Shown here: piece by piece, positions 40,327-41,241 of the stretch | How the letters are laid out: every line of letters starts with the position of its first letter | How positions within the stretch are numbered: position 1 is the first letter of the stretch | DNA from: a virus | Taxonomy: Duplodnaviria > Heunggongvirae > Uroviricota > Caudoviricetes | Reading direction: 5' to 3' (one strand) | Virus record (IMG/VR): IMGVR_UViG_2703718850_000006 | Span: 1-44,611 of that record | DNA: 44,611 bases | Notes under the pieces: model-generated | What the model was told of the DNA's origin: nothing | The model's database searches: none | What the model saw: the letters and a program-made list of their open reading frames with translations, nothing else | Position numbers and translations under genes: made by a program

Positions 40327-40440
40327 ATGACCTTCCTGAAACATAAGGCATCGTATAAAACTGCCTGCCTCATTGCACAACATGGAGATTCTTATCTTCA
40401 TATAGCCAACCTGTATTTGCGCAAGGCTTATGGGAGATAA
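40327..40440 (+). CDS. small ORF (37 aa), possible leader peptide
   Basis: Read directly from sequence; RBS GCAGGAGA; below the 60-aa ORF-track cutoff. Confidence 0.3.
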   Translation: MTFLKHKASYKTACLIAQHGDSYLHIANLYLRKAYGR

Positions 40441-40444
40441 AATA

Positions 40445-40663
40445 ATGGAGACATCAGCACGAAATAAAATGCAGAATGAGCCTGAGCAGGGGGGGGTAAT
40501 ACACGAAAAAGTAAGAGTGTTGCTAACCATTGAAAATGGGAAAGTAATTTACTCAAAACATCTGTTGGATAATGAATTCGTTGGTTGCATGGATACATTT
40601 CTGTGGATGGCAAAAAGAGCGGGTTACACGATTATTCCACCAGCAAAGGAACAAACATTATGA
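40445..40663 (+). CDS. hypothetical protein (72 aa) containing a G8 homopolymer
   Basis: ORF 40430..40663 trimmed to METSARNK start after GGGAGA; poly-G tract at 40489..40496; ATGA-coupled to next gene. Confidence 0.5.
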   Translation: METSARNKMQNEPEQGGVIHEKVRVLLTIENGKVIYSKHLLDNEFVGCMDTFLWMAKRAGYTIIPPAKEQTL

Positions 40664-41241
40664 ACAATTTTGAATTCAAACCAGAAGCGACAGCTCATGG
40701 CATAAAAATTGACAATACAACCATTGATTATGTTGATGCCGTACAGCGACTTAATGATGGTGAATACGACAATCCATACTGGCACGGCTTAAGAATCATG
40801 CAATGTATTGCTGAAGCCGATGATGCCGGATTCCTGGGAAGATTTTCAGTCGATATGAAGGTTGCTCAATGGCGCTGGCTGTATGTGGCAACGTTTATCA
40901 GTGAAGAGGAAAACAAGAACGGCACCATTGATATCCCTAACGATAACGGAACCACAGATCACGCAGTTATTTATAAGGGAAAGCATGGTTGTATAAGTAT
41001 ATACCCGGGGCCACTTCGCATTGCCCTGCAAAACCATGTTGAATGGGGATTTATTGAAAAATATGGCGAAGCTGAAGGCATGGGGAGAGTTCTGTTTCTC
41101 TATCAAAAAATGCTCATCGCAGATCCTGATAATGGTTTCATTCTCTCTGCTATGGGGCGCGAAGGGCTTGAACTCCTTCTGGATGAAATGATTAACGACC
41201 TGAATACTCATGGTATGCCAGAAGCGCCAGTGACACATTAA
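40660..41241 (+). CDS. hypothetical protein (193 aa)
   Basis: ORF 40585..41241 trimmed to MNNFEF start after AAAGGAA. Confidence 0.55.
   Translation: MNNFEFKPEATAHGIKIDNTTIDYVDAVQRLNDGEYDNPYWHGLRIMQCIAEADDAGFLGRFSVDMKVAQWRWLYVATFISEEENKNGTIDIPNDNGTTDHAVIYKGKHGCISIYPGPLRIALQNHVEWGFIEKYGEAEGMGRVLFLYQKMLIADPDNGFILSAMGREGLELLLDEMINDLNTHGMPEAPVTH

What the first reader, a model, noticed from the sequence alone, without database searches (positions are those of the whole stretch)
40327..41241. Three-gene operon of unknown function (37, 72 and 193 aa) with translational coupling
The three ORFs are tightly linked (RBS before each, ATGA overlap between the 72-aa and 193-aa genes) and have no recognisable motifs. 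The small-then-large coupled arrangement resembles toxin-antitoxin or sensor-effector defence modules, in a region where prophages concentrate such cargo.
Basis: inference. Interest (0 to 1): 0.65.

Follow-up and report, generated by a model that had tools for sequence, protein, structure and literature searches.

The report
Three uncharacterised prophage early-operon genes
These are three real, tightly chained small genes of unknown function in the early "left" operon of a phiP27-like E. coli prophage; they are not a self-contained toxin-antitoxin or defence module, so the finding is fairly ordinary phage dark matter.

Summary
ORFs of 37 aa (40327-40440), 72 aa (40445-40663) and 193 aa (40660-41241) each have a Shine-Dalgarno site. 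A 4-nt gap and an ATGA overlap link them. All three are under purifying selection, including the 37-aa ORF, which RefSeq and the phage records leave unannotated (intact in all 81 loci where it was detected, 24 alleles, pN/pS 0.15-0.19). The 72- and 193-aa genes are phiP27 L07 and L06 (PHROG 340 and 1515, both "unknown function").

They are not a stand-alone operon. They sit on the cI strand in a long early-left operon running to xis/int. In other Enterobacteriaceae phages the same genes lie in the same order but are separated by other small genes: orf37-p69-p115-L07-(ParE-like)-p146-L06-p75. L07 occurs without L06. L06 occurs without L07 or orf37 in P4-like satellites, just upstream of the primase.

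The toxin-antitoxin/defence reading is not supported. My best inference is that these are early-expressed, non-enzymatic accessory proteins of lytic development. Interest is low to moderate.

The parts
40327..40440 (+). orf37: a 37-aa basic miniprotein (pI 9.8), first gene of the translationally chained run. It is unannotated in phiP27, ASU11 and RefSeq E. coli, but is present in UniProt/GenBank as 'uncharacterised protein'.
   Evidence: intact in 81/81 loci, 24 alleles; pN/pS 0.15-0.19 in frame only; family alignment of 33-38-aa homologues across Enterobacteriaceae phages; annotation status
40314..40319 (+). Shine-Dalgarno AGGAGA for orf37, 7 nt before the ATG
   Evidence: Read from the sequence
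40432..40437 (+). Shine-Dalgarno GGGAGA for L07, embedded in the Gly-Arg codons that end orf37; conserved across the family (...AYGR*)
40445..40663 (+). L07 homologue (72 aa; PHROG 340, unknown function). The model shows about 22 disordered N-terminal residues, then a beta-hairpin (24-40) and a helix (49-58).
40646..40650 (+). Shine-Dalgarno AAGGA for L06, inside the 3' end of L07
40660..41241 (+). L06 homologue (193 aa; PHROG 1515, unknown function). Acidic (pI 4.7, net charge -15), alpha/beta, no match to any solved fold. It has a conserved C-terminal GMPxxPVxH motif, and residues 64-186 are remotely homologous to the 'p115' proteins of related operons.
   Evidence: pLDDT 88.8, pTM 0.85; no fold match; 129 clusters at 50% identity
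39131..39207 (+). Terminator-like hairpin after cI (39131-39149), then a promoter-like site (39179-39207; TTGACG-17-TATTAT) that carries the palindrome ATAGGATAACCTAT. Inferred to be the PL-type promoter of the operon that contains the three genes.
   Evidence: consensus matches only, function inferred
39248..40248 (+). Upstream genes of the same operon: L10 (HTH_3 regulator, 39248-39679) and L08 (121 aa, 39883-40248, unknown). L08 reassorts independently of orf37-L07-L06.
41287..42430 (+). Downstream genes on the same strand: two small membrane peptides (41287-41394, 41418-41606) and an SPFH/Band-7 lipoprotein (L05, 41603-42430). This cassette is present or absent among otherwise collinear relatives.

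Best explanation
The three ORFs are genuine, independently assorting accessory genes of the early-left (PL-type) operon of a phiP27-like lambdoid prophage of E. coli.

Transcription (inferred): it starts at the promoter just after the cI terminator (about 39179-39207) and reads through L10, L08, orf37, L07, L06 and on towards xis/int. The genes would then be silent in the lysogen and switched on at induction or infection.

Translation (shown from sequence): it is chained. Ribosomes finishing orf37 meet the L07 start 4 nt later, with its SD inside orf37's last codons. Ribosomes finishing L07 restart at the overlapping ATGA of L06.

Origin of the trio (shown by comparison): it is a contracted version of a gene string conserved in Enterobacteriaceae temperate phages, orf37-p69-p115-L07-(ParE-like)-p146-L06-p75. 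The adjacency seen here comes from the intervening genes being absent, not from an obligate three-part machine.

Function (inference only): the products have no catalytic or DNA-binding signature. orf37 is a basic two-helix miniprotein, L07 a roughly 45-residue beta-hairpin/helix domain, and L06 an acidic alpha/beta protein. They most likely act as stoichiometric binding proteins early in lytic growth, modulating host factors or, in satellites, helper factors (host takeover or anti-defence type). They probably do not protect the lysogen.
For: Identity and context:
- The region is 93-97% identical to E. coli prophages and 93% to phages phiP27 and ASU11, where the genes are L07/L06 'hypothetical' and lie between cI and xis/int on one strand.
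- A terminator and a promoter-like site follow cI. There is no terminator after L06 and no promoter-like site in the L08-orf37 gap.

Real genes: conservation and pN/pS support all three, and the coupling junctions are conserved.

Separable genes in a conserved order:
- Loci L087, L089 and L095-L098 show the order with intervening genes.
- Across the 50 loci, 45 have L07, 21 have L06 and 18 have both. They are adjacent only in L159.
- L06 homologues occur without L07 or orf37, next to a primase-helicase, in satellite-like elements.
- The plasmid-database hits look like excised phages or satellites rather than conjugative plasmids: mostly 12-42 kb, all non-mobilizable.

No enzymatic, toxin or defence signature. 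Every member of the wider string falls in a PHROG of 'unknown function'. L06 and p115 share a domain (hhalign probability 86%, E 4.7e-6), which points to a phage-specific protein superfamily.
Against: - No direct functional evidence exists. I found no literature on these proteins.
- Promoter, operator and read-through are consensus-level inferences. A weak internal promoter active in lysogens is not excluded.
- The region's low GC (38-42%) is also typical of lysogen-expressed morons.
- The close co-inheritance of orf37-L07-L06 in all Escherichia loci fetched would also fit a functional trio.
- L07 homologues very often sit directly upstream of, and overlap, a ParE-like toxin-domain gene. That keeps an antitoxin-like role for L07 alive.
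Confidence: 0.6

Rival explanations
1. Type II toxin-antitoxin module: L07 (with or without orf37) is a labile antitoxin, and L06 is a toxin whose translation is coupled to it.
For: The arrangement is small-then-large with an ATGA overlap. In many relatives the L07 homologue lies immediately upstream of, and overlaps, a gene with the Pfam ParE-like toxin domain (PF24732, 70 bits). The L07 family therefore often occupies the classic 'antitoxin' position.
Against: - L06 matches no toxin family or fold.
- L07 has no recognised antitoxin DNA-binding domain.
- L06 occurs without L07 (L084-L086, L186).
- L07 occurs without L06 in 27 of 45 distant loci.
- The ParE-like gene occurs without L07 (L088, L090) and L07 without it (L087, L089, L163-L166, the window).
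- The window itself has no ParE-like gene.
- The genes sit in an operon probably silent in lysogens.
Confidence: 0.07
2. Prophage-encoded anti-phage defence or superinfection-exclusion module (sensor plus effector) that protects the lysogen.
For: The region between the immunity genes and int is a known place for exclusion genes, such as lambda rexAB and sieB (established knowledge). The region has low GC. A variable SPFH-lipoprotein cassette lies next door.
Against: - No PADLOC model hits any of the three proteins, L08 or the neighbours tested.
- I found no enzymatic, NTPase, nuclease or transmembrane effector domain.
- No promoter of its own was detected.
- The L06 family is also carried by small satellite-like elements, directly before their primase. 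That is an early replication-operon position, not a defence hotspot.
- The genes are separable.
Confidence: 0.1
3. The proteins act on the phage's own development, for example modulating repressor or antirepressor, excision, or replication initiation, rather than on the host.
For: - L07 gives weak PHROG hits to C-terminal parts of anti-repressor families (phrog_4792 E 0.003, phrog_2379 E 0.08).
- L06 homologues sit immediately upstream of the primase-helicase in satellites.
- The operon begins with an HTH regulator (L10) and ends with xis/int.
Against: The anti-repressor similarity is below significance and could not be corroborated. No fusion of the L07 domain to larger proteins appeared among 1,642 ORFs from all fetched loci, and Pfam gave no support. 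The genes are dispensable in many related phages, which argues against a core regulatory or replication role.
Confidence: 0.2

Closest known systems
phiP27 genes L07 (P27p07) and L06 (P27p06); PHROG families 340 and 1515
   Same: Direct orthologues, at 87-90% amino-acid identity to phiP27 and 88-100% to phage ASU11, in the same position between cI and int. The HMM matches are 1.8e-24 (phrog_340) and 1.2e-92 (phrog_1515).
   Different: Nothing functional is known for these families. The window's L07 has a 10-residue longer N-terminus than the phiP27 allele. The RefSeq phiP27 record starts L06 63 nt upstream of the conserved ATG, at locus 4324 against the homology start at 4381.
Non-essential accessory genes of the lambda/P22 early-left (PL) operon (e.g. 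ral, kil, cIII, sieB, ea genes)
   Same: The position is the same: same strand as cI, downstream of the immunity terminator and a PL-like promoter, upstream of xis/int. The products are small, the genes are tightly packed or overlapping, and presence and absence among relatives is mosaic.
   Different: There is no sequence or profile similarity to any named PL-operon protein. Expression timing and dispensability were not tested here.
Type II toxin-antitoxin pairs of the ParDE type
   Same: The small upstream gene is translationally coupled to a downstream gene. Relatives of L07 precede a ParE-like (PF24732) gene.
   Different: The window has no ParE-like gene. L06 is not ParE-like. L07 shows no RHH, Phd or HTH fold. 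The partners are not obligately linked.
Early (alpA/primase) operon of P4-like/PICI-type satellites
   Same: L06-family proteins (36-42% identity), DUF4222 proteins and arrays of 60-75-aa helical proteins are shared between this prophage operon and satellite-like elements.
   Different: The satellites lack orf37 and L07. There the L06 homologue lies at or near the 5' side of a primase-helicase gene. The window is a full-size lambdoid prophage with DnaB/DnaC-type replication genes on the other strand.

Membership tests
Type II toxin-antitoxin system | The toxin belongs to a recognisable toxin fold or family | tested here: not met
Type II toxin-antitoxin system | The antitoxin has a DNA-binding domain (RHH/HTH/AbrB/Phd) plus a toxin-binding tail | tested here: inconclusive
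Type II toxin-antitoxin system | The two genes are inherited as an obligate adjacent pair | tested here: not met
   L06 occurs without L07 (L084-086, L186). L07 occurs without L06 in 27 of 45 distant loci. The two are separated by 1-2 genes in 17 of 18 loci that have both.
Type II toxin-antitoxin system | The toxin arrests growth and co-expressed antitoxin rescues it | not testable with these tools
   Needs expression experiments.
Known anti-phage defence systems (PADLOC-DB v2) | A profile match to a component of a described or candidate system | tested here: not met
   There were no significant hits for orf37, L07, L06, L08, the SPFH lipoprotein or the 62-aa membrane peptide. The best was E 0.018, at noise level.
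Lambdoid early-left (PL) operon accessory genes | Located between the immunity repressor and xis/int, on the repressor's strand | tested here: met
   The + strand carries cI 38417-39109, the three genes at 40327-41241, and int from 43412. The layout is the same in phiP27, ASU11 and an E. coli chromosome.
Lambdoid early-left (PL) operon accessory genes | Transcribed from a repressor-controlled promoter downstream of the cI terminator, without a promoter or terminator of their own | tested here: inconclusive
   There is a terminator-like hairpin at 39131-39149 and a 10/12 promoter match at 39179-39207 with a palindrome overlapping it. No promoter-like site lies in the L08-orf37 gap and no terminator follows L06. 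These are consensus scans only, not transcript data.
Lambdoid early-left (PL) operon accessory genes | Mosaic, dispensable distribution among related phages | tested here: met
   flanking genes (cI, L10, L08, the SPFH cassette) and the intervening genes (p69, p115, ParE-like, p146) vary independently.
PHROG 340 / PHROG 1515 | A significant full-length HMM match | tested here: met
   L07 matches phrog_340 at E 1.8e-24 (residues 6-71). L06 matches phrog_1515 at E 1.2e-92 (residues 1-193).
ParE-like toxin domain (PF24732) | A Pfam match above the gathering score for a gene in the window's trio | tested here: not met
   None of the three proteins hits PF24732. The domain is found only in relatives' extra gene, e.g. 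L097:3685-3903 at 70.3 bits.

The most novel reading that the evidence does not exclude
orf37, L07 and L06 are the minimal retained core of a widespread, wholly uncharacterised early-left gene string, and they work together. In this reading L06 is a confidently modelled protein with no solved-fold match, shared by lambdoid phages and P4-like satellites. It would be a new type of inhibitor of a host immune or replication factor. The L07 domain, which elsewhere precedes a ParE-like gene, and the 33-38-aa orf37 miniprotein would act as its partners or regulators.
Probability: 0.12. Interest if true: 0.6.

Novelty: new member of a known kind. Interest (0 to 1): 0.3.

Why it matters
As it stands, the result mainly corrects an over-reading: tight coupling of a small and a larger ORF in a prophage is not in itself evidence for a toxin-antitoxin or defence module.

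Three points have modest value.
- A conserved 33-38-aa protein gene, missed by RefSeq and the phage annotations, heads a translationally chained run of genes in many Enterobacteriaceae temperate phages.
- A conserved "dark" gene string has been defined (orf37-p69-p115-L07-ParE-like-p146-L06-p75). Every member is of unknown function.
- The L06/p115 protein superfamily has no solved-fold relative and is shared between lambdoid phages and satellite-like elements.

If any of these proteins proves to target a host defence or replication factor, the string would be a compact set of candidates to test. The host phages include Stx-converting phages of pathogenic E. coli.

Tried and rejected
Profile and sequence searches:
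- Pfam, NCBIfam, PADLOC and PHROG scans of all three proteins and their neighbours gave only PHROG 'unknown function' families.
- Per-member Pfam scans of the L07 (32 sequences) and L06 (58 sequences) families gave no consistent hit.
- PDB sequence and profile searches found nothing.

Fold searches:
- L06 against BFVD gave nothing.
- The afdb50 library was unavailable.

Other leads:
- The weak L07 similarity to anti-repressor C-termini could not be corroborated. The window's own Ant protein matches those PHROGs only in its N-terminal domain, and no L07-domain fusions exist in the fetched loci.
- I reject the label '2-polyprenylphenol hydroxylase related flavodoxin oxidoreductase' that some Klebsiella phage records give L06 homologues. 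No flavodoxin or oxidoreductase profile matches any family member.
- Literature searches by phage name, accession numbers, PHROG ids and PF24732 found nothing on these proteins. The original phiP27 paper is not held.
- Rfam found no RNA family in 39100-41700.
- The hairpin after L06 is not a credible terminator (-3 kcal/mol, z -0.14).

Full report
**1. What is there**

The window is a phiP27-like lambdoid prophage of E. coli. The queried 1 kb is 93-97% identical to prophage DNA in 80 complete E. coli genomes. It is 93% identical to phages ASU11 and phiP27.

In those records the 72-aa and 193-aa genes are L07 and L06, both 'hypothetical protein'. They lie in this order on one strand: cI, HTH regulator (L10), L08, L07, L06, optional cargo, DUF5406, DUF4222, xis, int. 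The opposite strand carries cro-like, Ant, Rha/Roi-like and replication genes. The finding therefore sits in the early-left arm of the immunity region.

**2. The observation**

The three ORFs and their signals are exactly as described.
- orf37 runs 40327-40440, with AGGAGA 7 nt upstream.
- L07 runs 40445-40663. Its GGGAGA lies inside the last two sense codons of orf37, and its ATG is 4 nt after the orf37 stop.
- L06 runs 40660-41241 and starts in an ATGA overlap with the L07 stop.

I fetched 80 related viral contigs with the L06 family and compared them.
- orf37 is not annotated in phiP27, ASU11 or RefSeq. It is nevertheless intact in 81 of 81 loci, with 24 alleles.
- Against the divergent alleles, 16-20 of 27-34 differences fall at codon position 3. 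pN/pS is 0.15-0.19 in the orf37 frame, against 0.66-3.6 in the other two frames. It is a real protein-coding gene.
- The exact 37-aa sequence is already in public databases as an 'uncharacterised protein', on 460 contigs.
- L07 and L06 are also under purifying selection, at 0.55 and 0.20-0.31.
- The junctions are conserved. An L07 ATG lies 2-4 nt after the orf37 stop in 79 of the 82 sequences compared (81 loci plus the window). The L07/L06 junction is an ATGA overlap in 53 and a 5-nt gap with a GAGGAA SD in 27.

**3. It is not a stand-alone operon**

A strong terminator-like hairpin (8-bp stem, T8) follows cI at 39131-39149. A 10/12 sigma-70 match (TTGACG-17-TATTAT) follows at 39179-39207. It carries the palindrome ATAGGATAACCTAT, which recalls the CTAT..ATAG palindromes found only in the cI/cro region.

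The scan found no promoter-like site in the 78-nt L08-orf37 gap. The hairpin after L06 is insignificant (-3 kcal/mol, z -0.14). I therefore infer that the three genes are internal members of a PL-type operon running from about 39210 towards xis/int. This rests on consensus scans, not on transcript data.

**4. Relatives show the genes are separable**

Profile searches and locus fetches revealed a gene string conserved in order across temperate phages of Escherichia, Salmonella (including Fels-1), Klebsiella, Citrobacter, Enterobacter and Cronobacter:

orf37 - p69 - p115 - L07 - (72-aa ParE-like, PF24732, 70 bits) - p146 - L06 - ... - p75

Neighbours abut or overlap. The counts in the 50 distant loci are:
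- 45 have an L07 homologue, 21 an L06 homologue and 18 both.
- Only one of the 18 (L159, a phiP27-group contig) has L07 and L06 adjacent.
- 27 loci have L07 but no L06 within the flanks.
- The ParE-like gene occurs without L07 (ENT39118, Fraca). L07 occurs without it (Fels-1, L087, L163-L166, the window).

L06 homologues (36-42% identity) also occur with neither L07 nor orf37 in small satellite-like elements. These carry AlpA or int, AntA, DUF4222 and, in one, Icd-like and PerC genes. The L06 homologue lies at or near the 5' side of the primase-helicase gene.

The family sizes also differ. L07 has more than 600 clusters at 90% identity. L06 has 129 clusters at 50% identity. The trio in this window is a contracted form of the string, not an obligate three-part unit.

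Within Escherichia phages, orf37-L07-L06 are inherited together while L08, L10 and cI reassort around them.

**5. What the proteins look like**

None matches Pfam, NCBIfam, PADLOC or any PDB sequence. PHROG places L07 in phrog_340 and L06 in phrog_1515, both of unknown function. The other string members are also in 'unknown function' PHROGs.

- *orf37.* It is basic (pI 9.8). Its family consensus is MTFIxDkxAYKTAxLyAxxG..ExIAxLYLRKAYGR. The sequence pattern, not a model, suggests a two-helix hairpin. The invariant ...AYGR* end doubles as the next gene's SD.

**6. Interpretation**

The TA/defence idea rests on the small-then-large coupling. The tests do not support it.
- There is no toxin, antitoxin or defence profile or fold.
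- The partners are separable.
- The genes have an early-operon position in both phages and satellites.
- No promoter of their own was detected.

One observation favours TA-like behaviour: L07 relatives often sit in the 'antitoxin position' before a ParE-like gene. That gene is absent here, and the two are not obligately linked.

My best-supported reading (confidence about 0.6 for the genomic statement, much lower for the biochemical one) is this. The genes are early-expressed accessory genes of lytic development. Their products act as non-enzymatic binders of host factors or, in satellites, helper factors. A role in the phage's own regulation or replication is the main alternative (0.2). Defence (0.1) and TA (0.07) are less likely.

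**7. Novelty and score**

The genes are already in databases as hypothetical proteins of phiP27-like phages. I found no functional literature. I file the finding as a new, uncharacterised member of a known kind: mosaic accessory genes of a lambdoid early-left operon.

The by-products are modestly interesting:
- a validated miniprotein gene that RefSeq misses;
- a defined 'dark' gene string that includes a ParE-like gene;
- a protein family with no solved-fold relative, shared with satellites.

Interest is 0.3.

Noticed in passing
window 35550-36892 (- strand): Two tandem paralogous Rha/Roi-like regulator genes (35550-36215 and 36212-36892). Each contains a C4 antisense RNA match (35973-36060, 36629-36716) and an isrK Hfq-binding sRNA match (36085-36161, 36741-36817). 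This looks like a duplicated regulator-plus-sRNA cassette in the early-right arm.
   Followed up: no
window 41287-42430 (+): A cassette of two small membrane peptides (35 and 62 aa; the latter in phrog_1130, 'moron/host takeover membrane protein') plus an SPFH/Band-7 lipoprotein (L05). It is present in some otherwise collinear relatives and absent from others (e.g. ASU11, E. coli 2013C-4991). It is a better candidate for variable lysogen cargo than the queried trio. There was no PADLOC hit.
   Followed up: partly
window 39248-40248 (+): The C-terminal half of L08 (residues 57-121) and the N-terminal part of the HTH regulator L10 (residues 3-60) both match phrog_4587, at E 1.6e-28 and 2.7e-07. 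L08 may be a stand-alone copy of L10's non-HTH domain.
   Followed up: no
L091-L104, L160-L185 (e.g. L097:3685-3903): Many Salmonella, Klebsiella, Citrobacter and Enterobacter prophages carry a 72-aa gene with the Pfam ParE-like toxin domain (PF24732, 70 bits). It overlaps the 3' end of the L07 homologue by about 29 nt. In ENT39118 and Fraca it follows p115 instead. The window has no such gene.
   Followed up: partly
L084:4001-4642; L186 (NZ_CP148430.1):3143-3745: L06-family genes occur in small satellite-like elements. One is a 12-kb circular 'plasmid' with int, PerC, AntA, DUF4222 and Icd-like genes, where the L06 homologue lies directly before the primase-helicase gene. In the metagenomic element L084, three small genes (75, 116 and 123 aa) lie between the L06 homologue and the primase-helicase gene. 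A 75-aa gene (phrog_1001) directly follows L06 homologues in L084-L087, but lies apart from them, or without them, elsewhere and is absent from the window.
   Followed up: partly
P0065 (E. coli, 110 aa): One E. coli protein is an in-frame fusion of the orf37 and L07 homologues, presumably created by an indel at the 4-nt junction.
   Followed up: no
L002 (NC_003356.1) 4324-4962; L001 (ON416862.2) 4181-4414: Public start-codon calls look too long. RefSeq phiP27 L06 is called at 212 aa, starting inside L07. ASU11 L07 is called at 77 aa, starting inside orf37. The conserved ATGs give 193 aa and 62-72 aa.
   Followed up: yes
phage records MF695815.1, MN166823.1, MK422455.1 and others: L06 homologues in several Klebsiella prophage records are labelled '2-polyprenylphenol hydroxylase related flavodoxin oxidoreductase'. 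No profile supports this, and it looks like annotation carry-over.
   Followed up: yes
window 846-1044 (-) and 27420-27491 (-): Rfam matches to the IS009 RNA (206.9 bits) near the tail-fibre end of the prophage and to one tRNA gene.
   Followed up: no
L055 (IMGVR_UViG_2874945390_000002) 3587-5001: In one relative, about 1.3-1.4 kb separates L07 from an L06 that is matched only from residue 50. An insertion probably disrupts L06.
   Followed up: no
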